This document shows, one piece after another, positions 28,858 through 47,446 of a stretch of DNA of 64,000 nt. The notes beneath the pieces were generated by a model, which was given only the letters and a program-made list of their open reading frames with translations, was not told the DNA's origin and searched no databases. The DNA is taken from IMG/VR virus record IMGVR_UViG_3300035390_000014, positions 96,001 through 160,000 of that record; one strand, 5' to 3'. Source of the stretch: a virus. Lineage: Duplodnaviria; Caudoviricetes. The position numbers and the translations under genes were made by a program. Every line of letters begins with the position of its first letter. The first letter of the stretch is position 1.

Positions 28858-28949
28858 GGGTTCGTCACCTAGATGGCCGATGGTACCAGACTTTTAATCT
28901 GGAGCGGATATCAATCCCCACGTGAGTTCGAATCTCACCGAACCCACCA
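28858..28949 (+). tRNA. tRNA-Lys(UUU) with long variable arm
   Basis: GGGTTCG/CGAACCC, CCAGA-CTTTTAA-TCTGG, variable stem GGAT/ATCC; 92 nt. Confidence 0.85.
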
Positions 28950-29161
28950 TAAAATTTATACAAAAAAAAGATAGACTGACAGATAGATAACGAAATCCCA
29001 AAGGGACCCGTTATAGATAGACAGGGGTTAGTACAATAATCTCTTATATACTAGTTAATAATATATATAGTAATATTTACTATAATGGATTGTATTATAA
29101 GAAACTTTCTTTTTCATATAGAACATATTATAAATGATAACCGTGTATAGGAGAATTTATT

Positions 29162-29677
29162 ATGAGTGTCAAAGATTTGGTAGAAAAAGGTCGTGTCGAT
29201 AAAGAACTAGAATGGATTAAAAAAAGAGAAGCTGAAAAACAAACTCATATTGATGAAAAAGCAAAAAGAGTTAAACAAGCTCAAGCACATATTGATAGTT
29301 TAATGACTGCATTTGAAAAAATATATTTTGATATTGATGCAACTGATGAAGAAGTTGCTAAATGTATATTAGAAGAAAATTATAGTATTATGGATAGTAA
29401 CCAATGTCTGTATAGTCAATTAGCTTTCAGAGAGAAAGATGTTCGTAAATATGTAGATGCTGAAAGACATTCATGGGGGACATCATCTCCACGTGATCAT
29501 GAATTTTATTTAATATCAAAATATGAAAAATATAATATATGGAAAAAAGCTTTAGAAGATAAATTTGGTATATTTATTCAATTCAGAGAAGAAGAACATG
29601 AGGGAGCAAGCAGAGGTTATAATGCTCCACCTGAAAGAGATTCATCTGGCATTGAATGTATTTTAAGTATTAAATAG
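29162..29677 (+). CDS. hypothetical protein
   Basis: AGGAG RBS after motif A. Confidence 0.6.
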   Translation: MSVKDLVEKGRVDKELEWIKKREAEKQTHIDEKAKRVKQAQAHIDSLMTAFEKIYFDIDATDEEVAKCILEENYSIMDSNQCLYSQLAFREKDVRKYVDAERHSWGTSSPRDHEFYLISKYEKYNIWKKALEDKFGIFIQFREEEHEGASRGYNAPPERDSSGIECILSIK

Positions 29678-29853
29678 GAGTCTAAAATGCAAAAAGCTTT
29701 ATATAGAAAACACAATGATAGGCAAATGAATAGTAGTACATATCATAAGAAAGATGGTACTAACATTAGAGCTAAATTAAAAATTCAATTAAAGAAACGT
29801 ATTCAAGAAACTATTTCAGACAAATAGAACATAATATAAATGAATGAGGTTAT

Positions 29854-30027
29854 ATGAAAACCATAGAATGTCCTTTATGTAAAGAGATTATTAAGAAAAA
29901 TAATCTTAAAGGTCATTGTTGGTATGCTCATGCACTTAGTATATCGAAAGATCCTAATAAAAAAAATAAACCATGGGATCAAGTAGGTATTGATAAAATT
30001 AAAAAAGTAATTGGTGGGTTCCCATAA
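29854..30027 (+). CDS. small C2H2 zinc finger protein
   Basis: Manual translation MKTIECPLC...GHCWYAH; stop lies inside tRNA-Ser(GCU). Confidence 0.5.
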   Translation: MKTIECPLCKEIIKKNNLKGHCWYAHALSISKDPNKKNKPWDQVGIDKIKKVIGGFP

Positions 30028-30099
30028 TCGGCATTGGAAGTGATTGCTAATCACTCGGGCTTCACAGCTTTGCAGGTTCAAGTCCTGTACCCACCGCCA
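30013..30099 (+). tRNA. tRNA-Ser(GCU)
   Basis: AGTGA-TTGCTAA-TCACT, variable arm, G73-CCA. Confidence 0.92.
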
Positions 30100-30197
30100 A
30101 AATATGGACAGGTTGCTCAATGGCAGAGCAGCTTTAAAAATATTTATATTTTTAGGGTGTAAGGTGGCTCGAAACCATCCAAGTGCATCAACTATGA

Positions 30198-30372
30198 GCC
30201 TGTATAGCTTTTGGATAAGCATTATAGATTAAGTAATCTTTAATAGTGTACATAAAATTAGATAAAAGAACTATAATTAGTAGATTTTTTTTATTATTTA
30301 TTTTGATGCGCATTGAGATATTTATATAAGAATTTTCAGTGATCTATCGGGGTTCGATCCCCCTTGCAGGCA
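30198..30372 (+). ncRNA. tRNA-like RNA with anticodon arm replaced by ~120 nt AT-rich insert
   Basis: GCCTGTA/TGCAGGC acceptor, D arm GCTT/AAGC, T arm GGGG-TTCGATC-CCCC. Confidence 0.55.
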
Positions 30373-30379
30373 TACCTAT

Positions 30380-30491
30380 GAGCGTGATCTAATAATCGGT
30401 AATATACGTCAGGTAGTATCAAGACAATGCAACCGGGCCTCGCCAAGAAGTACTGATGTAGATATGGGTTCAAGTCCCATTCACGCTCCCA
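30380..30491 (+). ncRNA. tRNA-like RNA with expanded anticodon region
   Basis: GAGCGTGA/TCACGCTC plus CCA; T arm ATGGG-TTCAAGT-CCCAT; 8-bp TACGTCAG/CTGATGTA enclosing ~40 nt. Confidence 0.6.
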
Positions 30492-30694
30492 ACCATTAAA
30501 CGTATATAGGTGAAATGATGGATGAAAAACTAGATGTATTACAAGATGATTTAAAAATTAAACCCATATCTAAATCAAAATGGTATCAGTTTAATAAAAA
30601 AGAAAAAGAAGGTCTGGCCATTACAGGTATTATAACTGCACTTGTTAGTGTAGGTTTTTATTACTTTATTAAGATTGCTGGATAATAACAATTG

Positions 30695-30783
30695 TGCGCT
30701 ATAGAGTAGTTGGTCAACTCACTTGTCTCATAAGCAAGACTCCCTAACCGGAGACGTAGGTTCGAATCCTACTAGCGCTCCCA
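30695..30783 (+). tRNA. tRNA-Met(CAU) with long variable arm
   Basis: CTTGT-CTCATAA-GCAAG, variable stem CTCC/GGAG, 1:72 mismatch, CCA. Confidence 0.85.
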
Positions 30784-30824
30784 AACAACTAAATGTGTAT
30801 TAGTGAATCTAAGGAGAATGTGAA

Positions 30825-31076
30825 ATGGCGTTATTTGGAAATGGTAATGGCAAAAAGAAAACAGTTGCGGGTATTACAGAATCATTAACTAGAATTAAAA
30901 CTGATCTTCAAATTCTTGAACAAGAGACTGCTGAGGAATTGGAACAATATAACCTTGAACAGATGGCGCTTCAACTTAAAATTGAAGGTGCTAAATCTGA
31001 AAAGAGTAAGGGATTTACAATATTTAAAAATATTTCTGCTCTTTTAGGAGAACCTGTAGAAGAAGAAGCTGTTTAG
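30825..31076 (+). CDS. hypothetical coiled-coil protein
   Basis: AAGGAG RBS; ends TAG TAA TGA. Confidence 0.6.
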   Translation: MALFGNGNGKKKTVAGITESLTRIKTDLQILEQETAEELEQYNLEQMALQLKIEGAKSEKSKGFTIFKNISALLGEPVEEEAV

Positions 31077-31085
31077 TAATGATAT

Positions 31086-31157
31086 GCCGAGAATCTAAGG
31101 AGATATCTATGTTTCATACGCAAAGACTAGTGGATTCGATTTCCACTCTCGGCACCA
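31086..31157 (+). tRNA. tRNA-Met/Ile2(CAU), atypical
   Basis: GCCGAGA/TCTCGGC, loop TTCATAC, short D arm, A73-CCA. Confidence 0.7.
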
Positions 31158-31177
31158 AATTAAATTGGGAAGAGAAT

Positions 31178-31759
31178 ATGAATTATATAATTTATAAAAC
31201 TACAAATAAAATAAATTCTAAAATTTATATTGGAGCTCATAAAACAAATAATCTTAAAGATAATTATTTGGGATCAGGAGATCTTCTAATTAAAGCTATT
31301 AAGAAATATGGAACTAAAAACTTTAAAAGAGAAATACTTAAAATTTTTGATAATTCTGATGATATGTATATTATGGAAAAAATGATTGTAAATAAATGTT
31401 TTGTTGAAAGATTAGATACTTATAATTTAAAAATTGGAGGAGTAGGAGGATGGGATTCAGAACCTCGTAAAAGATTTAAATTATTAATGGAAGATGAAGA
31501 ATATGTTAAATGTTTTAGTGAAAAAATTAAAAATGGACAAAAAATTTATATTAAAGATCCTGAAAAAAGAAAAACTTTTTTAAATAAAACTCACAATGAA
31601 GAATCAAAAAAGAAAATAAGTAATTCTAAAAAAGGCACAGGATGTGGAAAAAATAATTCACAATTTGGAACAATGTGGATAACCAATAATATTAAAAATA
31701 AAAAAATAAAGAAAACAGATCTTATTCCAGAAGGATGGAATAAGGGAAGAAAATTCTGA
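31178..31759 (+). CDS. GIY-YIG homing endonuclease
   Basis: YIIY..KIYIGAH..YLGSG; start reassigned past the tRNA. Confidence 0.85.
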   Translation: MNYIIYKTTNKINSKIYIGAHKTNNLKDNYLGSGDLLIKAIKKYGTKNFKREILKIFDNSDDMYIMEKMIVNKCFVERLDTYNLKIGGVGGWDSEPRKRFKLLMEDEEYVKCFSEKIKNGQKIYIKDPEKRKTFLNKTHNEESKKKISNSKKGTGCGKNNSQFGTMWITNNIKNKKIKKTDLIPEGWNKGRKF

Positions 31760-31988
31760 CTTATCCTGTACAACGTATCCATAGAGGATGTGACCCTTTT
31801 AATTAAGGGTGAAGAGCGGGTGTTGACACAGCCAAGCCGGATACTGCTAGTCAACACAATTAGGTTAAGTTGGGCATGTTTTAAATGTGTGATGGTCAAA
31901 AGTGTTTAAAGGATACTGCTGAAATGCTACGTTAGTTAAATAGAGGCTTCCTTGCCCTTGCATTAGGCAGCCATCACACATTTATTTT

Positions 31989-32064
31989 GGTTCCATCGTC
32001 TAATGGTTAGGACATAAGGTTTTCAACCTTAAAATCGAGGGTTCAATTCCCCGTGGAATCACCA
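31989..32064 (+). tRNA. tRNA-Glu(UUC)
   Basis: TAAGG-TTTTCAA-CCTTA, CCA. Confidence 0.9.
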
Positions 32065-32101
32065 ATAATTCTTTAGAACATATTATAAAATTACATATAA
32101 T

Positions 32102-32848
32102 ATGGAGTACAATATGAATGAATATCTAAAATATTTGCAGGAAAACTTATCAGAACCTCAAGAAGATATTATAGTAAATGAAATGTCATACTTTGTTTCA
32201 GGAAGTGTTAAACAAATTTTAAATAGAGTACCAGTGGTTACTAAAAAAGAAATGTTATCCAGATTACAAATTGGAGATATTATGGTGGCTTTTACTGCTA
32301 ATAAACCTTTGAGAGATAAATTTGGTGCTAAACAATATGGTAAAATATTAGCAGCATTTCAAGGTAGTCCTTATACATCTAGTAAAGTTGTAGTAGATAA
32401 AAATTATGCAGCTGGTTATGGCATTACAACAAATATGAAAGTGCCTTCTGATAATAAAGTTGAAAAAGTTCCATTAGCTCAAGCTATAAGAGATCGATCT
32501 GAAATATGTTTGATAAGAGTTAATACCTCAGATGCTATAAAGAAAAAAGCAATGAAGTGGGTTAATTCTAAAATGGGTTTAGCATATGCTGAATCTGATC
32601 TTTTAAAAACTACATGGGATAGATTTACTAATAGAAAATTTCTTCCATTTTTTAAGAAAAACAATATGGATCCAAATGAATTAAAAGATTTGCAACACCC
32701 TTTATTTTGTAGTACTATTATTTCAATAGCTTATTATGTAGCTGGATATAGAGATAAATTTAATGATCATCATCCTTATGATGTATGGCCAAGAGATTTT
32801 ATATTGGATAATAATACAGAAAAAATTTGTAAAATAGATTATAGTTAA
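32102..32848 (+). CDS. permuted papain-like (YiiX/NlpC-P60) protein
   Basis: LQIGDIM, FCSTII, VWPRDF. Confidence 0.6.
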   Translation: MEYNMNEYLKYLQENLSEPQEDIIVNEMSYFVSGSVKQILNRVPVVTKKEMLSRLQIGDIMVAFTANKPLRDKFGAKQYGKILAAFQGSPYTSSKVVVDKNYAAGYGITTNMKVPSDNKVEKVPLAQAIRDRSEICLIRVNTSDAIKKKAMKWVNSKMGLAYAESDLLKTTWDRFTNRKFLPFFKKNNMDPNELKDLQHPLFCSTIISIAYYVAGYRDKFNDHHPYDVWPRDFILDNNTEKICKIDYS

Positions 32849-32854
32849 AAATAT

Positions 32855-32937
32855 GCGTCGGCTGGGTATAGGTGAACCCAAGAGACTGTAAATCTCCCGC
32901 TTCGGCTGTGTAGGTTCAATTCCTACTCGGCGCACCA
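32855..32937 (+). tRNA. tRNA-Tyr(GUA)
   Basis: Loop CTGTAAA, variable arm, A73-CCA. Confidence 0.9.
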
Positions 32938-32940
32938 TAT

Positions 32941-33024
32941 GCACGGACTGAGTATTTGATGAACTCAAGAGAAGGTACCCTCCGCTTTAGAGCTTTGGTG
33001 GTTTGAATCCATCTCCGTGCACCA
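32941..33024 (+). tRNA. Tyr-like tRNA with non-canonical anticodon loop
   Basis: Perfect GCACGGA/TCCGTGC plus ACCA; loop region AAGGTACC lacks U33. Confidence 0.55.
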
Positions 33025-33057
33025 TTTATTAATAACAGTGAAACAAGGTGAGACAAA

Positions 33058-33534
33058 ATGAAGATTATTTCTGGTGGTCAGACAGGGGCAGACTTAGCTG
33101 GACTTGATGTAGCAAAAGATCTTGGTATTAAAACAGGCGGATGGGCGCCAAAAGGTTGGAAAACATCAGATGGTCCCAGGCAAAAATTACTTGAAAGTTA
33201 TAACCTACAAGAATCTACATTAGGTTATAGAGGGCGGACTCATGAAAATGTAAAAGATTCAAACGCAACAATTAGGTTGGCAGTTGATTTTACTACACCT
33301 GGTGAAGTATGTACAATGAATGCTATTAATAGTTGTAAAAAACCTTGGATCGATATTGATCTATTATCCCAAAGACCAGTTCAAGAAGTTATTGAATTTT
33401 TGATTTTGGTTAAACCTACCACTTTAAATATTGCTGGTAATACTCAACATACAAAAGGTTATGATATTCATAGATTAACTTATATGTATTTGAAAAAAGT
33501 TTTAAGTGAGTATAAACGAATCTATTTGAAATAA
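33058..33534 (+). CDS. SLOG-family 'molybdenum carrier'-like protein
   Basis: KIISGGQTGADLAGLD, RTHENVKDSNAT. Confidence 0.75.
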   Translation: MKIISGGQTGADLAGLDVAKDLGIKTGGWAPKGWKTSDGPRQKLLESYNLQESTLGYRGRTHENVKDSNATIRLAVDFTTPGEVCTMNAINSCKKPWIDIDLLSQRPVQEVIEFLILVKPTTLNIAGNTQHTKGYDIHRLTYMYLKKVLSEYKRIYLK

Positions 33535-33664
33535 GAAATTATTTCAAATCATTGTAACATATTATAAATAATATATAGGCTGGTCGATCGCATGACCGTT
33601 CCGATAGGTAAGAGCAAAGGTCGTTAATATTGCCGCCAGTCAAACTAAAATAGGAAAATTATTT

Positions 33665-34018
33665 ATGAGACAATGGATGGTTGATCCAAAGTGTATGTGT
33701 CAAAAGCATTTATGTGGCTGTCATGTCGAACATCATATGTTTGTTGGTAGTATGAAAAAGAAAATAAAGATGGATGGTTATTTAAAAAATAATTTGTTAG
33801 AACCTAGATCTTTATTTGAAAGACATAAAGTTCTTTCAGAAGAAATGACAAGACGAGGAATGAATCATAAAAGTCCTCTTGAAGAAAATGAATGTGAATG
33901 TATTTGTTATTTAGATGAATATCAACAAAATTGGGAAATTGATAAAGAATCAGCTTTAAAGGATTTACTAAGTAGATGTCCTGAATGTAAAAAACGATAT
34001 AAGGAAAATTGTAAATGA
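33665..34018 (+). CDS. pyrimidine dimer DNA glycosylase-like protein
   Basis: MRQWMVDP..C.KHL.G.H.E.H; RH..L..EM..RG..H.SP. Confidence 0.65.
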   Translation: MRQWMVDPKCMCQKHLCGCHVEHHMFVGSMKKKIKMDGYLKNNLLEPRSLFERHKVLSEEMTRRGMNHKSPLEENECECICYLDEYQQNWEIDKESALKDLLSRCPECKKRYKENCK

Positions 34019-34476
34019 AAATCTATACAGCAGGTCCAATCTCTGGACAGAGTTATGATCAAGTAATGACTAGATATAGAGGTCAGGTTAAAGCTCTTCA
34101 AGAAATGGGGTATGATGTTATTTGTCCTATGACTGGAAAAGAATATCTTAGAACTGAAATTGAACTTAAAGCTCATGGACTTGACCAACACCCAGTATCT
34201 ACTAATCATGCTATTAAAGAAAGAGATAGATGGATGGTTGGATCAGTTGATGTTGTATTAGTTGATTTTACCGAATGTGCTGGAGTTGTTTCTATTGGTT
34301 CATGTATGGAATTAGCTTGGGCTGATGAACTTAAAAAACATTCAATTGTTGTTATGGAAGAAGGTAATATTCATCAACATTGTTTTATTCTTGAATGTGC
34401 TGATATAGTATTCCCAACAATGGAGCAAGCATATAGATATTTACTTCATCTTTCAATGGGAATTACAATGGAATGA
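34015..34476 (+). CDS. nucleoside 2-deoxyribosyltransferase-like protein
   Basis: KIYTAGPI, RDRWMV..VDVVLV, GSCMELAWA. Confidence 0.7.
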   Translation: MKIYTAGPISGQSYDQVMTRYRGQVKALQEMGYDVICPMTGKEYLRTEIELKAHGLDQHPVSTNHAIKERDRWMVGSVDVVLVDFTECAGVVSIGSCMELAWADELKKHSIVVMEEGNIHQHCFILECADIVFPTMEQAYRYLLHLSMGITME

Positions 34477-34629
34477 AAACTGAATTTGATGTAATGTATA
34501 GACCAAGATGCATTGCTTTAGGTCTTAATATTGGTAATAATCATATAGTAAAAAAGAAATGGAAGAATATTTTTTTTGAACTTGATGTATTATTTTGGAC
34601 TTTTGGTTTAGAGTTTAAGTGGAGTTAAT

Positions 34630-34884: not shown

Positions 34885-34892
34885 TAAAATAT

Positions 34893-34980
34893 GGTAGGAA
34901 TGTTGAAATTGGTAAACATGCGAGGTTGTGATCCTCGTGCCTTAAGTGGTTTGCGGGTTCGAATCCCGTTTCCTACCCCA
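34893..34980 (+). tRNA. tRNA-His(GUG) with long variable arm
   Basis: G-1:C73, CGAGG-TTGTGAT-CCTCG, Leu-like D arm, variable stem GCC/GGT. Confidence 0.88.
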
Positions 34981-34998
34981 AAATTAAAATGAGGTATT

Positions 34999-35649
34999 AT
35001 GAAAAAATATATTATTTATAGAATTACTAATACTATAAATAATATGATTTATATTGGAGTCCATCAAACATTTGATTTAAATGATGATTATATGGGGTCT
35101 GGTAAATATCTTATTAATGCTATTAATAAGTATGGCATAGAAAATTTTAGTAAAGAAATAATGCAAATATTTAATTCATCTAAACAAATGTATGAAATGG
35201 AAAGTTTATCAGTTGATGAAAATTTTGTTAAACGAAAAGATACTTATAATTTAAAAGTTGGTGGATTTGGCGGGTTTGATCATGTAAATCAAAACTCAGA
35301 TATGCAACGAGAGAAAGTATATTTAGCTCTTAAAAAAATGAAAGAATTAGCTAAAGATCATGAATGGACTAAACAAAGATCTGATAAAATATCTAATTCT
35401 ATGAAACAACAATATAAAGATGGTAAAAGAAAACCACTAGATCCTTATTCTTTTTTAGGTAGAACTCATACAGATGAATCAAAAGAAAAAATAGGTCAAA
35501 TGAACTCTTTTCATCAATTAGGAAAAAAGAATTCTCAATATGGTACTTACTGGATATATAATAATAATTTAAAACAAAATAAAAAAATACCAAAAGATGA
35601 ATTTGATATGTGGAAATCTAAAGGTTGGTTAAGAGGTAGAAAATTTTAA
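34999..35649 (+). CDS. GIY-YIG homing endonuclease
   Basis: YIIY..MIYIGVH..YMGSG. Confidence 0.85.
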   Translation: MKKYIIYRITNTINNMIYIGVHQTFDLNDDYMGSGKYLINAINKYGIENFSKEIMQIFNSSKQMYEMESLSVDENFVKRKDTYNLKVGGFGGFDHVNQNSDMQREKVYLALKKMKELAKDHEWTKQRSDKISNSMKQQYKDGKRKPLDPYSFLGRTHTDESKEKIGQMNSFHQLGKKNSQYGTYWIYNNNLKQNKKIPKDEFDMWKSKGWLRGRKF

Positions 35650-35666
35650 ATTAAAAGGAATATATA

Positions 35667-41323: not shown

Positions 41324-41328
41324 ATAAT

Positions 41329-41402: not shown

Positions 41403-41464
41403 TTATTAATTCATTATAAAAAACAATTATTATATATATTAATAACTATAATGCAACACATTAA

Positions 41465-41618
41465 TTTGTATTTTATAAAAGGTTAAGAACGGAAAGATTA
41501 TACATAAAATAACTCAGGTGGTAGAGTATTTGCCTCAAAAGCAAACTGTCGTTGGTTCAATTCCAACTTTTAACAAAACCTAATCTTTTATATTACTTAA
41601 CCTTTTATAAGATACAAA
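41465..41618 (+). ncRNA. Y-RNA-like unit 1 (tRNA body joined at the acceptor end)
   Basis: 23-bp terminal IR, GAACG/ATTACT internal loop; D arm, TTTGC-CTCAAAA-GCAAA, T arm GTTGG-TTCAATT-CCAAC. Confidence 0.8.
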
Positions 41619-41622
41619 TTTA

Positions 41623-41761
41623 AATGAGAGAACGAAAAATGATTACAGATTATTACTATGATTAAGTAAAGGTCGCAGGTTCGAGTCCTGTCATAAGGGA
41701 AACTTTATGTAACTCAGTTGGTAGAGATTATATCAACAATCATTTTTATATTACTCTCATT
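41623..41761 (+). ncRNA. Y-RNA-like unit 2 (circularly permuted tRNA: anticodon, T, acceptor, D)
   Basis: AATGAGAG/CTCTCATT stem; TTACT-ATGATTA-AGTAA; GCAGG-TTCGAGT-CCTGT; CATAAG/CTTTATG; ACTC-AGTTGGTA-GAG. Confidence 0.8.
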
Positions 41762-41872
41762 ACATTTTTGTAGATCGCCGGTGGGTGACTATGCACCTTG
41801 GAAAACATAACTTTAGATGACTGGTAATTATCCGGTATATATCTAATTTCCCGGGGATCTACAATACAATTT

Positions 41873-42002
41873 GCCCTCATTGAGAGCGTTTCTACCAAGG
41901 AGCCATAATGTTGAATCTAGATAGATGTTATGGAAATTGATTAGAGCGAGAGGTATTCTCATTGGTCTTAGGATCAGATAGGTTCGAGTCCTATTGGGGG
42001 CT
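41873..42002 (+). ncRNA. tRNA-like RNA (acceptor plus T arm) with large central domain
   Basis: GCCCTCA/TGGGGGC, ATAGG-TTCGAGT-CCTAT; nested stems TGAGA/TCTCA and CCATAA/TTATGG. Confidence 0.55.
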
Positions 42003-42012
42003 GAATAATTTT

Positions 42013-42160
42013 AATGGAAGAACGGAAAATAATTACAGTAGTCCATTAGGAGGACGTGTTTGGAGGTTCGAATCCTTCTTTCCCCACCACACATTTATGG
42101 GGAAATAGGCAAACTGGTACAGCCGCGTAATACAACAATTATTTTTAAATTACTTCCATT
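42013..42160 (+). ncRNA. Y-RNA-like unit 3 (permuted tRNA with internal ACCA)
   Basis: AATGGAAG/CTTCCATT; GTCC-ATTAGGA-GGAC; GGAGG-TTCGAAT-CCTTC; TTTCCCCA/TGGGGAAA; D arm GGC..GCC. Confidence 0.8.
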
Positions 42161-42240
42161 ACTTTTTTATGCCGGGTGATACGTATGTTTATCCATACGC
42201 CGGCTCCATTATTATAATAATAAAAAACAGGGAGATTAGG

Positions 42241-42717
42241 ATGAAAATGAAAACAAGTTTAATTTATGGTTTAATTTTGGTAATGGTTTCTATGTTAGCA
42301 ATTTCATGTAGTCAAAGGAAATTGGTAACAACTCCTGTTTTTAAAATGACTATTGCTGAAGTAAAAGTTGCAGCTCCTGAACCTGCAACAGTAACTGATA
42401 TCAGAGAAAGCATAATGTTTAAATATGATAGCTCTGTTATTGAAGAAATTGAAATGAAAAAGGTTGAAGAAATTGCTGGAGTAATGGCACTTTATTCTGA
42501 TACAGACCTAGTCCTTAAAGGTTATGCAAGTTCAGAAGGTACAACCGAATATAATACTGAACTTTCTTTAGCAAGGGCTGAAGTTGTAAAAGCTGAATTA
42601 CTAAGCCTGGGTGTTTCAGAAGATCGCATTCTTATACTAGGTCATGGAGCAACCAATGAATTTGGTGAGCTTCTAGATTTAAACAGAAGAGTCCTTGTTT
42701 TAAGCATGGATGAATAA
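42241..42717 (+). CDS. OmpA-family peptidoglycan-binding lipoprotein
   Basis: LAIS-C lipobox; GYASSEG..YN..LS..RA..VK; NRRV. Confidence 0.85.
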   Translation: MKMKTSLIYGLILVMVSMLAISCSQRKLVTTPVFKMTIAEVKVAAPEPATVTDIRESIMFKYDSSVIEEIEMKKVEEIAGVMALYSDTDLVLKGYASSEGTTEYNTELSLARAEVVKAELLSLGVSEDRILILGHGATNEFGELLDLNRRVLVLSMDE

Positions 42718-42725
42718 CAATATTT

Positions 42726-42810
42726 AAGTCAGAACGAAAAGAGATTACAGTAAAAATTAATGCTTCCAAACAGCAATACAATACAACAATTTCTTTTGAA
42801 TTACTGACTT
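42726..42810 (+). ncRNA. Y-RNA-like unit 4 (stem plus single hairpin)
   Basis: AAGTCAG/CTGACTT, GAACG/ATTACT; TGCT-TCCAAAC-AGCA. Confidence 0.7.
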
Positions 42811-42824
42811 TACATTTTTAAACT

Positions 42825-43090
42825 ATATGAGGTTTGTCGTTTTGAAATATGAAACGAATACTTTAATCAGGATTTGTATTTTGCTATTTTATTGCCCTGG
42901 ATAATACCGGCCCCCAATGGGACTGCCTGGTTACTGGGCCTGCATAACCCACGCGCGTGGTTGGCACTTTAGATCCTGAAAAAGTAAAAAATAGCTGAAA
43001 ACGTGGAGACTATCCACTACTAGATTTGACAACCTAGAAACTAGTACACAGTAAGCTGAGATTGTCAGTCTTAGAATCTGTGCCTCATAT
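42825..43090 (+). ncRNA. unclassified structured RNA, ~265 nt
   Basis: ATATGAGG/CCTCATAT closing stem, several nested stems, GC-rich core, possible pseudoknot. Confidence 0.55.
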
Positions 43091-43102
43091 TACAATTTTT
43101 AG

Positions 43103-43249
43103 AGAGTTAGAACGAAAAAATATTCCAGATATACAATATAGGTTCAATCCCTATTTTGGGCTCCAAGCATGCCCATGCTGACAATTGGCTGTCAACTTGT
43201 CTTAAACAACAGGTGTAATAAATAAAATATTTTTTAAATTACTAACTCT
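43103..43249 (+). ncRNA. Y-RNA-like unit 5 (permuted tRNA: T, acceptor, D, anticodon)
   Basis: AGAGTTAG/CTAACTCT; ATAGG-TTCAATC-CCTAT; TGGGC/GCCCA; TGAC/GTCA; CTTGT/ACAGG. Confidence 0.8.
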
Positions 43250-43350
43250 TTTATTTAAAATATTCGTCATAACCTTAACCAGTTATGACGAATATTTTTT
43301 TGCCGACAATAGGAACGAATCATTTTAAACGTGAAAAGGAGAAAATCCGA

Positions 43351-44958
43351 ATGGTTAATTTACCTGTTCGAATTGAAGAAAAATTTGTTAACGCAAATTT
43401 AAGAAAAATTGGGCAAGACATTGAAACAACTATGTCTTTATTTGGCACTGATATGAACAGAGCTACACATTATAACACCAAAGAAGAGTTAGCAGCTATG
43501 AGCGAAAAAGAACATAGAAATATGTTTTCTATTGATCGTTCAATCTATGGCTGTATTGCTTGTCTACCTGGTACAACTGATATTTCTAAAATGAAAGTTG
43601 TTACCAATCTTTTAGGTATCTCATGGGAGCATGGATCTGATTTTCAAGTCACTACTCCTATTCTTACAATAGAACAGGAAAGATTAATCATTGATCATCT
43701 GGTATCAACACTTCCTCCAAATAGAATGATAAATTTGTTTGCTTCTTTTGAGGATAGTCGAGTTAACAATACCCGTATGAGAAAAACAGTTCTTCCTTTT
43801 ATTCTTAACTCAGGTAGTCTTGGGTGGTGGGCAGTTAAGTATAGAAGTAAATTGAAAACTGTATTATCTCATTGTTGGGGTAAAAAGATGACAAGTGTTA
43901 TTGTTTCTATCATTGGGAAAAGAGCAAAGACCCAAAAAGAAAATGATATCCTTGATTCCTTTATTGGTAAGTATATTGTTATCGTTGAGAAGACTAAACG
44001 TAAGGCTATATTTGAATGTCTACGTTTTATCTTTTCTGTTGGTGATAATTTTACCAACCATCTTTTTGTAAATTTCCATGCTTCAAAAACTGATTTCTCA
44101 AAAGCAAAAGGTTTGCCAAAAGAAGTAATTGAAGGTATAAGAGCGGCTTATCACCCAACTCTGGATAAAGCTGAAACCTTAAAAGTTGCTGAGTCGTCAA
44201 TGACTAACAAGGAAAAACGTTTGGTCCAAAACCAGGCTGTTAAAACTGGAGTTAAAATTGAATGGGACCCTAAGACACAACCATTGGTCGAACTCTTTAT
44301 ATACGGGTTTAAAATGGGGTTCACCAATGCAATACATGATGCTATTCTACAAAAATCTGATAGAGCTGGTCAAGCATTGCCATTTACCTATGATAAAGTT
44401 GGGATCATTTGTGACGATAGTTTTTCAATGAGTGGTTCTGAAGATCAGAAACTGAAAGCATTGGCTATAAGTTATGCTACAGTTGAAACATTGAAAGGTG
44501 TTGGTTCTACGACTCTGGTGGCATCTACTTCTGGTAGACGTCCATCATATACCAATAGTCCAATGGGTGAATCAAATCTGGCAAAACCTTTACTTAAATT
44601 GTTAAAGAGAGATGTAGATGTTATCTTTGTTGTATCTGATGGTTATGAAAATGCACCAGAAGGTAGATTTGGAGAAGTGTTGAAAATTGCCAGGGATAAA
44701 GCTGGAGTAACAACCCCAGTATATCATTTTAATCCAGTTGGAGCTGCTGAAAGTAAAGTTGCTGTAAAAAGATTATCTAATGATGTTCCGGTGACTCCGG
44801 TGACTAATCCAGAGAAAATGGGTCTTTCATTATTTAAGACAATGATAGCAGCTGATCCAAAACAAGGGATTGTTAGATTGTTTAACATGGTTCTTCCAGA
44901 ATTGGAAAAGACTAAACTATTATACTCTCGGGTTAACCTAGAAGCTATAAGCGAATAA
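43351..44958 (+). CDS. TROVE/Ro60-like protein with C-terminal vWA domain
   Basis: vWA MIDAS CDDSFSMSG and SDGYEN; long predicted helical N-terminus; start at ATG 43351 after AAGGAG. The TROVE relationship is inferred. Confidence 0.65.
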   Translation: MVNLPVRIEEKFVNANLRKIGQDIETTMSLFGTDMNRATHYNTKEELAAMSEKEHRNMFSIDRSIYGCIACLPGTTDISKMKVVTNLLGISWEHGSDFQVTTPILTIEQERLIIDHLVSTLPPNRMINLFASFEDSRVNNTRMRKTVLPFILNSGSLGWWAVKYRSKLKTVLSHCWGKKMTSVIVSIIGKRAKTQKENDILDSFIGKYIVIVEKTKRKAIFECLRFIFSVGDNFTNHLFVNFHASKTDFSKAKGLPKEVIEGIRAAYHPTLDKAETLKVAESSMTNKEKRLVQNQAVKTGVKIEWDPKTQPLVELFIYGFKMGFTNAIHDAILQKSDRAGQALPFTYDKVGIICDDSFSMSGSEDQKLKALAISYATVETLKGVGSTTLVASTSGRRPSYTNSPMGESNLAKPLLKLLKRDVDVIFVVSDGYENAPEGRFGEVLKIARDKAGVTTPVYHFNPVGAAESKVAVKRLSNDVPVTPVTNPEKMGLSLFKTMIAADPKQGIVRLFNMVLPELEKTKLLYSRVNLEAISE

Positions 44959-44968
44959 GGAGAATAAA

Positions 44969-45994
44969 ATGGAAATTACAATTGCAGAAGTGTTGAAAGG
45001 ATGTACTCCTGGTCGTATGCAAAGCGCTGGGTATATGCAGATGGTTCCATTACTATCTGAACCTGATATGATTGATAAAAGATTTGGAGCATTTACTGGA
45101 ATACTATCAAGTACCCATGATTATGGAACAGTTCATTTAGAAAATAAAGAAGACTTTCCAACAATCATGCCCATGGGAACTGCTATTTTAACTACACAAA
45201 GTGCTCAGAATCATGCTCTTGGTAAAGTTAAATTAATGACCAGAATGTCCGAATCAAATATTGATACAGCAGCTTGTATCCAGGATACTCAGGGTGGGAT
45301 CATTAGAAGCGGTGTTCATAGTTTATCAATCCTCCCATATTCAATTCGTGAGAAAGCGTTGGAAATAAAGGATAAGAGAGGTTATAGTAAACTATGGCCT
45401 GCTATCAAAGTATTTAATGAGGAAGTTGGGATTGAAGAAGGTAACTACCGTTCCATGGGTCATCTTGAACATTACCTGGAAACATTTGGTGATAAGCTTG
45501 ACGAGTTCATTGGTCAGTTTGAAATTGTTCCAAATCAAGTCGGAGCAATTATTTTGTTAAATGGTCAAATTGCTGGTGTTGAAAGAGCACCCAATTATGA
45601 TTTCTGGAAAGAATTGTGGAAACCATTGATTCGTGAATGTTATGGTTCTGCATCTTTGGTATTTGCTAAGAAAGGTGAGAAACCTTCACCACCACTTGGA
45701 AGAATGCCGATTAATGATCACTTGGTTAAAAACATTGATGATCTTGAAACTGAATATAATAAGGCTGAAAAACATGAAGAAGATACTGTAAAGAATCTTA
45801 TTCGGAATTTTATTCAGCAACCATTTACTGCCACTCGGGAAGAAAATGAACCCAATGGTACTATTTGTGTGGATCATCTTAGTGGTGGTCAATTCACTGG
45901 ACAGATTGTTAGAGACAGCGCATTTGTTGTTTATGCCAGTCTGGTTCCAGATAAGAATGCTCGATTTAATACAGCAGCAGCATTTACAATTTAA
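44969..45994 (+). CDS. ARPP/DUF6569-like protein
   Basis: QMVPLL, G..L....AQNH, AACIQ..QGG, QVGAIILLNG..AGVE resemble ARPP-type domains recalled as vWA gene neighbours. Confidence 0.5.
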   Translation: MEITIAEVLKGCTPGRMQSAGYMQMVPLLSEPDMIDKRFGAFTGILSSTHDYGTVHLENKEDFPTIMPMGTAILTTQSAQNHALGKVKLMTRMSESNIDTAACIQDTQGGIIRSGVHSLSILPYSIREKALEIKDKRGYSKLWPAIKVFNEEVGIEEGNYRSMGHLEHYLETFGDKLDEFIGQFEIVPNQVGAIILLNGQIAGVERAPNYDFWKELWKPLIRECYGSASLVFAKKGEKPSPPLGRMPINDHLVKNIDDLETEYNKAEKHEEDTVKNLIRNFIQQPFTATREENEPNGTICVDHLSGGQFTGQIVRDSAFVVYASLVPDKNARFNTAAAFTI

Positions 45995-45997
45995 TAA

Positions 45998-46144
45998 TAT
46001 GCCTACCTAACACAGTAATTGGTGAGGGTGAAAGCGTCCCGTGGAGGGAACAATGCTAATTGTCGGCAGGGTTCGACCCCCGATAAAAGCGACCGGAGCG
46101 AGCATAAAGCGGAGGTCATAAACGCAGATCATGCAAAAGGCATA
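45998..46144 (+). ncRNA. unclassified structured RNA
   Basis: TATGCCT/AGGCATA closing stem; GC-rich; TGTCGG/CCGATA arm with GGTTCGACC. Confidence 0.5.
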
Positions 46145-46145
46145 T

Positions 46146-46198
46146 AGTTGGGGTGGTGATATTAATTTATCATCATCCCAACTAACTATTTTTTTTTT
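46146..46198 (+). terminator. intrinsic terminator
   Basis: AGTTGGGGTGGTGAT/ATCATCATCCCAACT plus T-run. Confidence 0.75.
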
Positions 46199-46226
46199 GT
46201 ATTCTTTTTTATAAAAAAGGTGATGT

Positions 46227-46406
46227 ATGAAATATTTTGAAGATGATGGTAAACCAGTTAAATGTCATAAATGTGGAAGTGAAAAAATTAAATTAACAAC
46301 TAAAGATATGATTGATAATATGGTATGTGAAGTTGAATATTCATGTGGTGATTGTGGAACATATCTTGCATATTGGTCATATGGATATTTTGAAACGGAT
46401 TGTTAA
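46227..46406 (+). CDS. small zinc-ribbon protein
   Basis: Manual translation with CHKCG and CGDCG. Confidence 0.55.
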   Translation: MKYFEDDGKPVKCHKCGSEKIKLTTKDMIDNMVCEVEYSCGDCGTYLAYWSYGYFETDC

Positions 46407-46436
46407 TTTTAAATACAAATAGAACATATTATAAAT

Positions 46437-46512
46437 GGTCCCATAGCTCAGTGTGTAGAGCATCTGGCTTACATCCAGAATGTCCCTAGTTCAAATCTAG
46501 GTGGGATCACCA
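46437..46512 (+). tRNA. tRNA-Val(UAC)
   Basis: TCTGG-CTTACAT-CCAGA, A73-CCA. Confidence 0.92.
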
Positions 46513-46533
46513 AAACCAATAAGGAAAAATGAA

Positions 46534-46974
46534 ATGATTGAATCTAAACTAGTGAAAATTAAGAAATTACATAAAGATGCTATTATACCAAAATATCAAA
46601 CAATAGGTTCTGCTGGATTTGATTTAAGTTCTATTATTGATTGTAAACTTTTTCCAAATCAACAAGAGTTAATCCCAACAGGACTTTCCGTTGAAATCCC
46701 ATTAGGGACTGAATTACAAATTAGACCTAGAAGTGGACTTGCTAAAAATTCTATGATATCAATAACTAATTCACCAGGTACATTAGATTCAGACTATAGA
46801 GGTCCTATAGGAATCATTCTTATAAATCATAGTCCTTTTGTTTTTGAAATAAAGAAAGGTGATAGAGTAGCTCAAGCAGTATTATGTCCAGTGTATCAAG
46901 CTAACTTTGAAGTTGTTGATGAACTCTCAAACACAGACCGTGGAGAAAACGGTTATGGAAGCACTGGTAAATAA
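46534..46974 (+). CDS. dut: trimeric dUTPase
   Basis: AGFDL, RPRSG, GTLDSDYRG, GDRVAQ, RGENGYGSTG. Confidence 0.95.
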   Translation: MIESKLVKIKKLHKDAIIPKYQTIGSAGFDLSSIIDCKLFPNQQELIPTGLSVEIPLGTELQIRPRSGLAKNSMISITNSPGTLDSDYRGPIGIILINHSPFVFEIKKGDRVAQAVLCPVYQANFEVVDELSNTDRGENGYGSTGK

Positions 46975-47048
46975 CACTCTTTTTTAGAACAAATTATAAA
47001 TGGTTATAGGCCCGAATTAAATTTATAATTTGTTTAAGGGAGCGTTAA

Positions 47049-47357
47049 ATGGCTAAAATTGGTAAAAAACGTCTAACTGGAACTAAGTTAAGAGATTACA
47101 ATTTTATTCACTCACAAAAAAGAGCAAGACAAAGATATAATTTAGTTATATCTAGATCTAATTATGAACAGCTCTGTACGGAGATAAAACAAAAAAAATT
47201 TGTATCTCTAACGCGCACCTATAAAAAGAGTTATCAAGAAGTATACAAAGTTAAGTTTAAAAATACAACCTTGTATGTATTATATAAAGAAGATGGTAAT
47301 AGAATAACAACAATGTTACCTTTTCAAAGATTTGAAAGATTAAAAAAAGAAGCATAA
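47049..47357 (+). CDS. hypothetical basic protein
   Basis: H.QKRA.QRY..ITTML pattern. Confidence 0.55.
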   Translation: MAKIGKKRLTGTKLRDYNFIHSQKRARQRYNLVISRSNYEQLCTEIKQKKFVSLTRTYKKSYQEVYKVKFKNTTLYVLYKEDGNRITTMLPFQRFERLKKEA

Positions 47358-47363
47358 TTAAAT

Positions 47364-47446
47364 GCAGAAGTCGGTCAACGGTAGATCACCTGCCTTCCAA
47401 GCAGGCGCTTTAAGCATTGCGGGTTCGATTCCCGTCTTCTGCTCCA
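47364..47446 (+). tRNA. tRNA-Gly(UCC) with long variable arm
   Basis: GCAGAAG/CTTCTGC, U73, CCTGC-CTTCCAA-GCAGG, 13-nt variable region GCT/AGC. Confidence 0.88.

What the first reader, a model, noticed from the sequence alone, without database searches (positions are those of the whole stretch)
28858..47446. Four class I tRNAs (Lys, Met, His, Gly) carry class II-like long variable arms
Seen: Lys-UUU (28858, 92 nt), Met-CAU (30695, 89 nt), His-GUG (34893, 88 nt) and Gly-UCC (47364, 83 nt) all have paired variable hairpins. His keeps G-1:C73 and Gly keeps U73, so native identity elements persist. The His D arm closely resembles this phage's Leu-UAA D arm. Known: bacterial long variable arms are normally limited to Leu, Ser, Tyr and Sec. 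Inference: either steric protection from host tRNA nucleases (Lys-UUU is the PrrC target) or deliberate mischarging and recoding.
Basis: partly seen in the sequence, partly recalled or inferred. Interest (0 to 1): 0.75.

Follow-up and report, generated by a model that had tools for sequence, protein, structure and literature searches.

The report
Phage tRNAs with an extra arm
A large uncultured sediment phage builds its lysine, start-type methionine, histidine and glycine tRNAs with the extra side arm that bacteria reserve for leucine, serine and tyrosine tRNAs; three of the four belong to widespread, apparently undescribed phage tRNA families that may let phages escape bacterial tRNA-cutting defences.

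Summary
ARAGORN and Rfam call all four genes as full tRNAs with variable regions of 19 (Lys-UUU), 17 (Met-CAU), 15 (His-GUG) and 13 nt (Gly-UCC). Each keeps its own identity marks, including an encoded G-1:C73 in His and U73 in Gly.

New here:
- The Met gene is initiator-like. It scores 86 bits against a model of a phage family of long-arm CAU tRNAs found in at least 119 viral contigs, and the arm helix of that family covaries.
- The Lys gene is closest to long-arm Lys, Thr and Asn tRNAs of other huge phages.
- The His gene has a Leu-like core and long-arm His counterparts elsewhere.
- The Gly gene is an ordinary class I Gly tRNA with a roughly 9-nt insertion and no homologues found.

Codon use in the phage polymerase shows standard meanings, so recoding is unlikely. 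Escape from tRNA-cutting defences is plausible: PARIS cuts beside the arm, and a longer variable loop lets a phage tRNA-Tyr defeat retron Eco7. It is untested.

The arms are absent from distant relatives, and no close relative holding these genes was found. This scan has flagged long-arm phage tRNAs on other DNA many times. I found no paper describing them.

The parts
28858..28949 (+). tRNA-Lys(UUU), 92 nt with encoded CCA. It has A73, a 3-bp D stem with an enlarged D loop (class II-like) and a long variable arm.
   Evidence: ARAGORN. RF00005 55.4 bits. Nearest relatives are long-arm Lys, Thr and Asn tRNAs of other phages.
28903..28921 (+). Lys variable region, 19 nt. Stem GGAT (28906-28909) pairs with ATCC (28914-28917); loop ATCA; 3 unpaired nt before the stem and 4 after.
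   Evidence: The MFE fold recovers the hairpin. The stem letters equal the V stem of the phage's Leu-UAA.
30695..30783 (+). Initiator-like tRNA-Met(CAU), 89 nt. It has a U1.U72 mismatch, G2:C71, C3:G70, A11:U24 and C73, but only one G:C among pairs 29-31/39-41. It carries a long variable arm.
   Evidence: ARAGORN. RF00005 57.2 bits. 86.2 bits against the family model R1, rank 8 of 30.
30739..30755 (+). Met variable region, 17 nt. Stem CTCC (30740-30743) pairs with GGAG (30750-30753); loop CTAACC.
   Evidence: The homologous helix covaries in the family: 83% of cells paired against 52 +/- 4% after shuffling and 35-54% when slid.
34893..34980 (+). tRNA-His(GUG) including an encoded G-1 (34893) opposite C73. 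It has a Leu-like D arm, an A15:U48-type core and a long variable region.
   Evidence: D arm 81% identical to Leu-UAA. Nearest relatives are a long-arm His (L128) and then Leu-UAA tRNAs. An identical contig occurs in another run.
34938..34952 (+). His variable region, 15 nt. Weak 3-bp stem GCC (34939-34941) with GGT (34948-34950); loop TTAAGT.
   Evidence: The stem is not above chance on its own (P = 0.94). Long-arm His genes of G007, L113 and L128 have different, paired stems.
47364..47446 (+). tRNA-Gly(UCC), 83 nt, with U73, G1:C72, C2:G71 and a class I-type 4-bp D stem. It is an ordinary Gly body with a roughly 9-nt insertion in the variable loop.
   Evidence: Nine viral contigs hold Gly-UCC genes with the same anticodon arm and T arm but a 4-nt variable loop. 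Named phage Gly tRNAs align with a gap at the insertion.
47406..47418 (+). Gly variable region, 13 nt. Possible 3-bp stem GCT (47407-47409) with AGC (47413-47415); loop TTA.
   Evidence: The MFE fold does not recover it. P = 0.55 by shuffling. No long-arm Gly among 31 Gly tRNAs of phages that carry other long-arm tRNAs.
14518..14605 (+). tRNA-Leu(UAA), the phage's own class II tRNA. The His gene echoes its D arm and the Lys gene echoes its V stem (GGAT/ATCC).
20559..20645 (+). tRNA-Leu(UAG). Its 17-nt T arm is identical to that of the long-arm Lys gene.

Best explanation
These are four genuine phage tRNA genes, and they are probably functional. Each keeps the identity marks of its own amino acid: Lys, a start-type Met, His and Gly. 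No Lys/Asp/Asn-type, Gly/His/Thr/Pro/Ser-type or Met-type synthetase domain was found in the 65%-complete record, so the host's cognate synthetases most likely charge them. Their codons are read in the standard way.

What differs is the body. A 13-19-nt variable region replaces the usual 4-5 nt. In Lys, His and partly Met it comes with a class II-like D arm. Lys, Met and His are members of recurrent, phage-borne lineages of such 'class II-bodied' tRNAs. Gly is a separate small insertion, possibly copied from the similar 3' half of the His gene.

Most likely function: the arm projects from the junction between the 3' strand of the anticodon stem and the T stem. That is next to where defence tRNases dock or cut: PARIS AriB at 40|41, and retron-Eco7 PtuAB in the variable loop. 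The phage copy would then escape cleavage and keep translation going when the host's Lys, Met or His tRNAs are destroyed.

Shown here: gene structure, identity elements, family recurrence, covariation of the arm, standard codon meaning. Inferred: expression, charging, resistance to any nuclease.

Confidence by layer: about 0.8 that these are working cognate tRNAs of recurrent phage families; about 0.4-0.45 that the arm's role is escape from nucleases.
For: - All four are full-length tRNA calls with U8, A14, G18G19, U33 and a T-loop GTTCGA(A/T)T, plus encoded CCA.
- Identity elements are kept: Lys UUU with A73; His GUG with G-1:C73; Gly UCC with U73, G1:C72 and C2:G71; Met CAU.
- The Met gene scores 86.2 bits on model R1 of long-arm CAU tRNAs. 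Such tRNAs occur in at least 119 viral contigs, with 67 distinct genes in 80 loci.
- In that family every arm pair shows compensatory changes: 83% paired against 52 +/- 4% shuffled and 35-54% slid.
- Across the 67, the mean best stem is 3.82 against 2.99 +/- 0.10 in shuffles. 19 of 24 tetraloops are GNRA.
- Long-arm Lys genes with the same anticodon and T arms but different paired V stems occur in a complete 527-kb phage and a complete 148-kb phage.
- A 636-kb GenBank phage has adjacent long-arm Asn and Thr genes, and the Thr D loop equals that of the window's Lys.
- Long-arm forms are enriched among U36 tRNAs: 25/152 against 17/252, P = 0.004. PARIS AriB attacks that group (Lys-UUU, Thr-UGU, Asn-GUU, minor His) at 40|41 (PMC12409363).
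- Retron-Eco7 cuts the variable loop of tRNA-Tyr, and the SP15 phage tRNA-Tyr needs its 5-nt longer loop to neutralise it (PMC12673091).
- In 151 sampled Bacteroidota genomes, the 84 strong matches of initiator size were all 73-75 nt. The single 88-nt match was a tRNA-Ser.
- Codon meanings are standard.
- The His region is identical in an independent assembly.
Against: - No expression, charging or cleavage data exist for any of these genes.
- Distant relatives (PolB 43-49% identical) have normal-length Lys, Met, His and Gly tRNAs. No close relative carrying these genes was found, so conservation of these particular arms is unknown.
- Phage T5 escapes PARIS with point changes in the anticodon stem, and its Lys, Thr, Asn and His tRNAs are ordinary class I.
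- The window's Lys keeps the AriB motif U36-A-A-U-C.
- Gly-UCC is not among the tRNase targets named in the papers I read, and its insertion has no homologues.
- Each hairpin alone is no better than chance.
- The U36 enrichment comes from loci chosen for carrying a long-arm CAU gene, and it counts related sequences as independent.
- The host is unknown.
Confidence: 0.45

Rival explanations
1. The arms are tolerated insertions with no function of their own. The variable loop accepts extra hairpins. Phage tRNA genes sit among homing endonuclease genes and recombine with one another, so pieces of the phage's own Leu/Tyr-type genes (D arm, V arm, T arm) were copied into class I genes and persist because they do little harm.
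For: - Mosaic signs: the Lys T arm is identical to that of Leu-UAG and its V stem equals that of Leu-UAA. The His D arm is 81% like Leu-UAA. The Met T arm is 88% like Tyr. The His and Gly V regions are each other's close matches (60%) and their T arms differ by one base.
- HNH and GIY-YIG endonuclease genes flank the tRNAs.
- The arms are absent from distant relatives.
- The Gly insertion is a singleton.
- Engineered hairpins in the V arm are tolerated in E. coli (PMC7590224 abstract).
Against: - The arm helix is kept by compensatory changes across a large family.
- Arm loops are mostly GNRA in other phages.
- The design recurs in unrelated complete phage genomes, often next to a normal copy with the same anticodon.
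- It is unevenly spread over anticodons. Neutral insertions should not show these patterns.
Confidence: 0.25
2. The arm is a label read by a phage factor, not a shield against the host. It would let a phage-encoded enzyme tell phage tRNAs from host tRNAs. Candidates are a tRNA-degrading host shut-off nuclease, the phage's CCA-adding enzyme, the RlaP nucleotidyltransferase or a modification enzyme.
For: - The window encodes a CCA-adding enzyme (4091-5401) and an RlaP RNA-repair-type nucleotidyltransferase (5409-6569) close to the tRNA genes.
- GNRA loops on many arms in other phages would suit a specific contact.
Against: - Only 4 of the window's 20 class I-type tRNAs (suppressor included) carry an arm, so a general self-label is unlikely.
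- Arm sequences differ freely between phages.
- No phage tRNase was identified in the parts of the record I annotated.
Confidence: 0.12
3. The arm causes deliberate mischarging or recoding. It would recruit LeuRS, SerRS or TyrRS so that AAA, AUG, CAY or GGA codons receive another amino acid, as with nematode V-arm tRNAs that are charged with leucine.
For: - Lys has A73, the key Leu and Tyr discriminator, on a class II-like body.
- The His core is Leu-like with an A15:U48-type pair.
- Precedents exist in allo-tRNAs (PMC5389517). The nematode nev-tRNA precedent rests on my own knowledge.
Against: - His and Met have C73 and Gly has U73. Replacing A73 with C73 abolishes leucylation in E. coli (PMC9976931).
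- Lys has G15:C48.
- The arms have 3-4 bp, shorter than two of the phage's own three Ser arms (5-6 bp).
- Cognate determinants are all present.
- In PolB, AAA aligns with Lys in 48% of homologue residues (AAG 55%) and GGA with Gly in 57% (GGT 57%). 28 of the conserved-Lys columns use AAA.
Confidence: 0.05
4. Some or all of the four are decaying or non-functional tRNA genes.
For: - The His D stem has only two Watson-Crick pairs.
- Met has a 1:72 mismatch and an unusual C73.
- The Gly MFE fold is not a cloverleaf.
- Phage tRNA clusters do hold pseudo-tRNAs: the window has a 73-nt Leu-CAA gene without CCA.
Against: - Rfam scores of 48-57 bits lie within the range of the window's other tRNAs.
- All universal nucleotides and CCA are kept.
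- The Met 'defects' are conserved family traits: 32 of 67 have a 1:72 mismatch, and A11:U24 is invariant in the alignment.
- These are the record's only genes for their anticodons.
Confidence: 0.05

Closest known systems
Bacterial class II (type II) tRNAs: tRNA-Leu, tRNA-Ser, tRNA-Tyr
   Same: A long variable region folds into a short hairpin. Lys and His also have a 3-bp D stem with an enlarged D loop. The arm geometry of Met and His (1 nt before the stem, 2 after) matches the phage's own Leu-UAA. The Lys arm, with 3-4 unpaired nt after the stem, looks Tyr-like.
   Different: The anticodons, discriminators and acceptor marks are those of Lys, Met, His and Gly, which reviews describe as class I only (PMC9976931). 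Met and Gly keep a 4-bp class I D stem.
Phage SP15/T5 tRNA-Tyr that neutralises retron Eco7 (PMC12673091; PMC11555353)
   Same: It is a phage-encoded tRNA that replaces a host tRNA cut by a defence nuclease. Its variable loop, 5 nt longer than the host's, is required for the effect, and the nuclease cuts in the variable loop.
   Different: That tRNA is already class II, and only its arm length differs from the host's. Here an arm appears on tRNAs that normally have none, and no nuclease is known for this phage's host.
[quoted passage not shown]
   Same: The same tRNA identities recur among long-arm phage tRNAs (Lys here; Thr and Asn in LR756504.1 and others). The proposed logic is the same: an uncleavable phage copy.
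   Different: T5's versions are ordinary class I tRNAs that escape through U39 and A41 substitutions. The window's Lys keeps U36-A-A-U-C and differs by its arm.
allo-tRNAs and (8/4) tRNA-His/Ser of bacteria and phages (Mukai et al. 2017, PMC5389517)
   Same: They are non-canonical tRNAs, some phage-borne, with long V arms and anticodons outside Leu/Ser/Tyr. They include His tRNAs found in phage tRNA clusters.
   Different: Those have 8/4 or 9/3 acceptor/T branches. Most carry Ser identity marks. Their (8/4) tRNA-His lacks G-1 and has A73. The window's four have the standard 7/5 branch, and its His has G-1:C73.
Nematode V-arm tRNAs (nev-tRNAs; Hamashima et al., cited in PMC5389517; details from my own knowledge)
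   Same: Class II bodies carrying class I anticodons (Gly, Ile).
   Different: They are eukaryotic, charged with leucine and cause mistranslation. Here the cognate identity marks are kept and codon meaning is standard.

Membership tests
Class II (type II) tRNA architecture | Variable region longer than about 10 nt that forms a stem-loop | tested here: met
   Variable regions are 19, 17, 15 and 13 nt. Stems are 4 bp in Lys and Met and 3 bp in His and Gly. The MFE fold recovers the hairpin in Lys, Met and His. The helix covaries in the Met family. The Gly hairpin is weak.
Class II (type II) tRNA architecture | 3-bp D stem with an enlarged D loop, as in bacterial Leu, Ser and Tyr tRNAs | tested here: inconclusive
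   Lys has a 3-bp D stem with a 10-12-nt loop. His has 2-3 bp with an 11-nt loop that is 81% like Leu-UAA. Met and Gly have 4-bp class I-type D stems, although the Met D arm is 70% like Leu-UAG.
Class II (type II) tRNA architecture | Leu, Ser, Tyr (or Sec) anticodon and identity set | tested here: not met
   The anticodons are UUU, CAU, GUG and UCC. The discriminators are A, C, C and U.
Cognate isoacceptors tRNA-Lys, -Met, -His, -Gly | Anticodon plus acceptor and discriminator identity elements of the cognate synthetase | tested here: met
   Lys has U34U35U36 with A73. His has GUG with encoded G-1:C73. Gly has C35C36, U73, G1:C72 and C2:G71 (with A3:U70 in place of G3:C70). Met has CAU but C73 in place of A73.
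Cognate isoacceptors tRNA-Lys, -Met, -His, -Gly | Short (4-5 nt) variable loop | tested here: not met
   13-19 nt. Relatives' Lys, Met, His and Gly tRNAs and named phage Gly tRNAs have 4-5 nt.
Cognate isoacceptors tRNA-Lys, -Met, -His, -Gly | Aminoacylation with the cognate amino acid | not testable with these tools
   Indirect evidence only: codon meanings are standard, and no class IIa, class IIb or MetRS-type synthetase domain was found in the 65%-complete record.
Bacterial initiator tRNA-fMet (for the CAU gene) | Mismatch at 1:72 with G2:C71 and C3:G70 (formylation determinants) | tested here: met
   U1.U72, G2:C71, C3:G70 and G4:C69. 32 of 67 family members have a 1:72 mismatch.
Bacterial initiator tRNA-fMet (for the CAU gene) | A11:U24 in the D stem | tested here: met
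   The D stem is GAGT/ACTC, with A11 opposite U24. The pair is A:U in 19 of 19 aligned family members and 28 of 30.
Bacterial initiator tRNA-fMet (for the CAU gene) | Three consecutive G:C pairs at 29-31/39-41 | tested here: not met
   The window has U29:A41, G30:C40 and U31.G39. In the family, 13 members have three such pairs, 35 have two and 19 have one.
Bacterial initiator tRNA-fMet (for the CAU gene) | A73 discriminator | tested here: not met
   The window has C73. In the family, A occurs in 58 of 67 and C in 3.
Phage long-arm CAU tRNA family (covariance model R1 built here) | Full-length match to the model, including the arm helix | tested here: met
   86.2 bits over model positions 1-89, rank 8 of 30 at E <= 1e-15. 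Note that the window's sequence was one of the 19 used to build the model.
allo-tRNA / (8/4) tRNA-His | 8/4 or 9/3 acceptor/T branch; for (8/4) His, no G-1 and A73 | tested here: not met
   ARAGORN gives 7-bp acceptor stems and 5-bp T stems for all four. His has G-1:C73.

The most novel reading that the evidence does not exclude
Phages have evolved a parallel set of class II-bodied tRNAs for identities that bacteria keep strictly class I. These are chiefly the decoders of A-starting codons (initiator Met, Lys, Asn, Thr, Ile), plus His and Cys. The extra arm would be a general shield that makes these copies uncuttable by defence tRNases that dock on the anticodon stem and variable-loop side, such as PARIS-type Toprim, PrrC-type and retron PtuAB-type enzymes. 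The variable arm would then be a counter-defence device, and its spread over anticodons would map which host tRNAs are under attack in nature.
Probability: 0.3. Interest if true: 0.85.

Novelty: new variant of a known kind. Interest (0 to 1): 0.7.

Why it matters
Textbooks and current reviews state that in bacteria only Leu, Ser, Tyr (and Sec) tRNAs carry a long variable arm. This window, and the families it led to, show that phages break that rule repeatedly and under selection, even for a start-type tRNA. That has three consequences.

First, annotation pipelines label these genes as ordinary tRNAs or mis-type them.

Second, cognate synthetases, EF-Tu, the ribosome and perhaps the formylase must accept an extra arm. 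This is useful knowledge for tRNA engineering.

Third, it gives a concrete, testable idea for how phages defeat the fast-growing list of tRNA-cutting defence systems. The test is simple: add or remove the arm and measure cleavage and phage rescue.

Tried and rejected
- **Close relatives.** PolB found only two near relatives (74-81% identical). Both are contigs of 4-6 kb without tRNAs.
- **Neighbouring proteins as bait.** The HNH and cpYpsA proteins led to unrelated or distant phages. The dUTPase search of metagenome contigs gave one 89% relative whose 2.2-kb contig ends before the Gly gene. Whether the arms exist in close homologues therefore stays open.
- **Exact patterns.** Patterns for the window's Met and His arms found nothing in viral contigs.
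- **BLAST of the four genes against GenBank phages.** No named phage homologue with an arm was found. The hits were a long-arm Thr in an uncultured 636-kb phage, arm-less Gly tRNAs, and a marginal match of His to a haloarchaeal virus tRNA-Leu.
- **Sequencing runs.** No RNA holder was listed. Contigs of two 2024 metagenomes hold diverged relatives of parts of the region, but the output did not show their tRNA arms.
I checked T5 itself. Its Asn, Lys, Thr and His tRNAs are ordinary class I, so T5 experiments cannot stand in for armed tRNAs.
- **Single-sequence shuffle tests of the four hairpins.** None was significant.
- **Search of the record for synthetases and repair enzymes.** Class IIa/IIb and Met synthetase domains, RtcB and RNA ligase were not found. 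The record is only 65% complete.
- **Exact Lys pattern in 185,579 species genomes.** There was one hit, a 147.6-kb contig binned into a Bacteroidetes MAG. It carries the same 84-nt Lys gene as the 148-kb phage G007 and is probably that phage.
- **TAG recoding.** TAG ends 12 of 72 ORFs, so there is no sign of reassignment in the window.

Full report
**What the window is.** The 64-kb window is part of a 202.7-kb IMG/VR virus record, estimated 65% complete, with about 30% G+C and all genes on one strand. It encodes:
- a family B DNA polymerase fused to a uracil-DNA glycosylase domain
- a CCA-adding enzyme and an RlaP nucleotidyltransferase
- sugar-nucleotide and 7-deazaguanine pathway enzymes
- a GH108 lysin
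- several HNH and GIY-YIG homing endonucleases scattered among tRNA genes

ARAGORN finds 26 tRNA genes and a tmRNA. Rfam agrees. All tRNA matches of the whole record lie inside the window. The same phage occurs at 99% or higher identity in two further sediment metagenome runs.

**The observation.**
- Their variable regions are 19 nt (Lys-UUU), 17 nt (Met-CAU), 15 nt (His-GUG) and 13 nt (Gly-UCC). The window's other class I tRNAs have 3-6 nt.
- All have a 7-bp acceptor stem, a 5-bp T stem, the universal core nucleotides and an encoded CCA. They score 48-57 bits on the Rfam tRNA model.
- G-1 is encoded at 34893 opposite C73 in His. Gly has U73, G1:C72 and C2:G71. Lys has A73.
- The His D arm is 81% identical to that of the phage's Leu-UAA, its best match in the window.

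The weak point is the claim that all four arms are paired.
- Lys and Met have 4-bp stems. His and Gly have only 3 bp.
- Shuffling each region gives stems as long with P = 0.13, 0.05, 0.94 and 0.55.
- An unconstrained fold recovers the hairpin in Lys, Met and His but not in Gly.

**What each gene is.** Removing the variable region and comparing bodies shows that each gene is closest to tRNAs of its own anticodon in other phages, not to Leu, Ser or Tyr genes. Domain by domain the picture is mosaic.
- Lys has a class II-like D arm, a T arm identical to Leu-UAG and the same V-stem letters as Leu-UAA.
- Met has a D arm most like Leu-UAG and a T arm most like Tyr.
- His has the Leu-UAA D arm and an A15:U48-type core.
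- Gly has a plain class I D arm. Nine viral contigs carry Gly-UCC genes with the same anticodon and T arms but a 4-nt variable loop, and named phage Gly tRNAs align with a gap at the insertion. Gly is therefore an ordinary Gly tRNA with a roughly 9-nt insertion.
- The Gly and His variable regions resemble each other, and their T arms differ by one base. The insertion may have been copied between them. This is inference.

**Relatives.** Distant relatives of the phage (PolB 43-49% identical) have normal Lys (78 nt), His (76), Gly (76) and Met (74) genes. The only close relatives are short contigs without these genes. The arms are certainly not ancestral to the wider clade.

**The design recurs in other phages.** A pattern built from the Lys anticodon arm and T arm, with a free gap between them, found long-arm Lys genes in two complete phage genomes.
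- A 527-kb phage also has long-arm Lys-CUU, Asn, Cys and Glu genes. These sit beside normal copies of Lys-UUU, Asn and Glu.
- A 148-kb phage also has long-arm Lys-CUU and His genes.
- The V stems all differ (GGAT/ATCC, GTCC/GGAC, GCGG/CCGC, GCA/TGC) yet all pair, and all of these genes have 3-bp D stems.
- BLAST of the Lys gene hit a long-arm Thr-UGU next to a long-arm Asn-GUU in a 636-kb GenBank phage. The D loop of that Thr equals the window's Lys D loop.
- Over all about 930 tRNAs collected, the window's Lys is closest to long-arm Lys, Thr and Asn genes. Its His is closest to a long-arm His and then to Leu-UAA genes.

**The Met gene.** In the 80 loci returned, ARAGORN called 67 distinct long-arm CAU tRNAs and 42 other long-arm class I tRNAs.
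- As a class, their variable regions are far more self-complementary than shuffles: mean best stem 3.82 against 2.99 +/- 0.10, with 0 of 300 shuffles reaching it. 19 of 24 tetraloops are GNRA.
- About half have a 1:72 mismatch and 5' ends such as CGCGGG or TGCGGG. A11:U24 is invariant in the aligned core. These are initiator hallmarks, and the window's gene shares them (U1.U72, G2:C71, C3:G70, A11:U24).
- The window's gene lacks the three G:C pairs of the anticodon stem and has C73.
- A covariance model of the 19 closest members scores the window's gene at 86.2 bits, rank 8 of 30.
- On the model-based alignment, all four arm pairs show compensatory changes. 83% of cells are paired, against 52 +/- 4% after shuffling and 35-54% when the partner is slid. 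The alignment is fitted to the structure, which favours pairing, but the slid control keeps that bias.
- As a control, the same model found only 73-75-nt initiator-size matches in 151 sampled Bacteroidota genomes. The one 88-nt match was a tRNA-Ser.

**Recoding.** In the PolB alignment with five distant homologues, AAA aligns with Lys about as often as AAG does (48% against 55%). GGA aligns with Gly as often as GGT (57% each). Conserved Lys, Gly, His and Met columns use the expected codons. C73 in His and Met and U73 in Gly exclude the A73 that E. coli LeuRS requires (PMC9976931). Lys has G15:C48, not the Leu-type pair. The arms are short. No Lys/Asp/Asn-type, Gly/His-type or Met-type synthetase domain was found in the record, so host enzymes must charge these tRNAs. 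Mischarging is therefore unlikely, though only biochemistry can exclude it.

**Function.** I searched the held literature seven times and read the most relevant papers. I found no description of class I phage tRNAs with long arms. The main paper on phage tRNAs evading nucleases does not mention variable arms at all.
- PARIS AriB cuts tRNA-Lys(UUU), Thr(UGU) and Asn(GUU), and weakly His(GUG), between positions 40 and 41. That is on the strand that runs into the variable region (PMC12409363).
- Retron-Eco7 PtuAB cuts tRNA-Tyr inside the variable loop, and the SP15 phage tRNA-Tyr needs its 5-nt longer loop to neutralise the system (PMC12673091).
- A bacterial Schlafen cuts Lys(UUU) and Met(CAU), among others (PMC13056530).

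In my sample, long-arm forms are enriched among tRNAs with U36: 25 of 152 against 17 of 252 (odds ratio 2.7, P = 0.004). They are never seen in Gly, Ala, Val, Pro, Gln or Phe. That sample is biased and its sequences are related.

Several facts count against the idea.
- T5 escapes PARIS without arms.
- The window's Lys keeps the AriB motif.
- The Gly insertion fits no target named in the papers I read.
- Nothing here measures cleavage.

The main rival is tolerated insertions spread by recombination among tRNA genes, which the mosaic structure and the homing endonucleases support. Covariation, GNRA loops and recurrence argue against pure neutrality for the Lys, Met and His types. For Gly it may well be the answer.

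**Verdict.** The genes are best read as working cognate tRNAs, with Met of initiator type, in a class II-like body. Three of the four belong to widespread phage families. Recoding is unlikely. Nuclease escape is the leading hypothesis but is untested. Earlier agents of this scan reported the same design on other DNA many times (Asn, Cys, Trp, Lys, His, and nine tRNAs of one 344-kb phage). My tests agree with them, except that T5 itself has no armed tRNA.

Noticed in passing
window 41503-41575: The reverse oddity. A 73-nt tRNA with a Leu anticodon (CAA) sits on a class I body with a 5-nt variable loop, a weak A/T-rich acceptor stem and no CCA (RF00005 54 bits). Short-arm Leu genes also occur in other phage loci (L020, L037, L051, L053, L060).
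   Followed up: partly
window 51668-51743: An amber-suppressor-type tRNA (anticodon CUA; ARAGORN labels it 'Pyl'). TAG still ends 12 of 72 ORFs of 100 aa or more, so there is no sign of TAG reassignment in this window.
   Followed up: partly
window 13075-13464: A phage-encoded tmRNA (Rfam 94 bits) with tag peptide ADNFADDYALAIAA. A related contig (L004) has a tmRNA in the same Ser-Ser-tmRNA-Leu arrangement.
   Followed up: no
window 21401-21483: A c-di-GMP-I riboswitch match (39 bits against a cut-off of 35) lies just upstream of a 319-aa ORF (21523-22482) that has no Pfam family.
   Followed up: no
window 52408-52483: A tRNA-like element below the Rfam cut-off (26.7 bits). It has a good acceptor stem, a T arm and a 3' ACCA, but an aberrant D and anticodon region. 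ARAGORN does not call it.
   Followed up: partly
window 4091-6569: A CCA-adding enzyme (PolyA_pol head plus HD domain) is followed directly by an RlaP RNA-repair-type nucleotidyltransferase. No RtcB or RNA ligase domain was found in the 65%-complete record.
   Followed up: partly
window 322-870, 2904-3380, 9661-10317: QueC, a dATP/dGTP diphosphohydrolase domain protein and a radical SAM protein. Together these suggest a 7-deazaguanine (preQ0-type) pathway, for DNA or tRNA modification.
   Followed up: no
window 28026-28697, 31079-31759, 34999-35649, 11195-11704, 19804-20568: HNH and GIY-YIG homing endonuclease genes are interspersed with the tRNA genes, as in the T4 and T5 tRNA regions. They may drive recombination between tRNA genes.
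   Followed up: partly
L008:9099-9191, L085, L090, L100, L124, L128, L130: tRNA-Ile(UAU) genes with 20-24-nt variable regions occur in several unrelated phage contigs. Many share a CAGATAA or CTAGATTTG-like core and show little obvious hairpin. This may be a separate kind of insertion.
   Followed up: no
L063 (LR756504.1 128039-140103): 5896-5983 and 5989-6076: A 636-kb GenBank 'uncultured phage' has adjacent long-arm Asn(GUU) and Thr(UGU) genes of 88 nt each. These are two of the three main PARIS AriB targets. The record has no annotation.
   Followed up: partly
L062 (NGFH01000003.1, 147,646 bp): A contig filed in a Bacteroidetes MAG carries the same 84-nt long-arm Lys gene as the 147,693-bp terminally repeated phage record G007. 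It is nearly the same length, so it is probably that phage binned into a bacterial genome.
   Followed up: partly
window 57395-60670: A family B DNA polymerase carries an N-terminal uracil-DNA glycosylase-superfamily domain (residues 33-170). The fusion is conserved in relatives at 43-81% identity.
   Followed up: no
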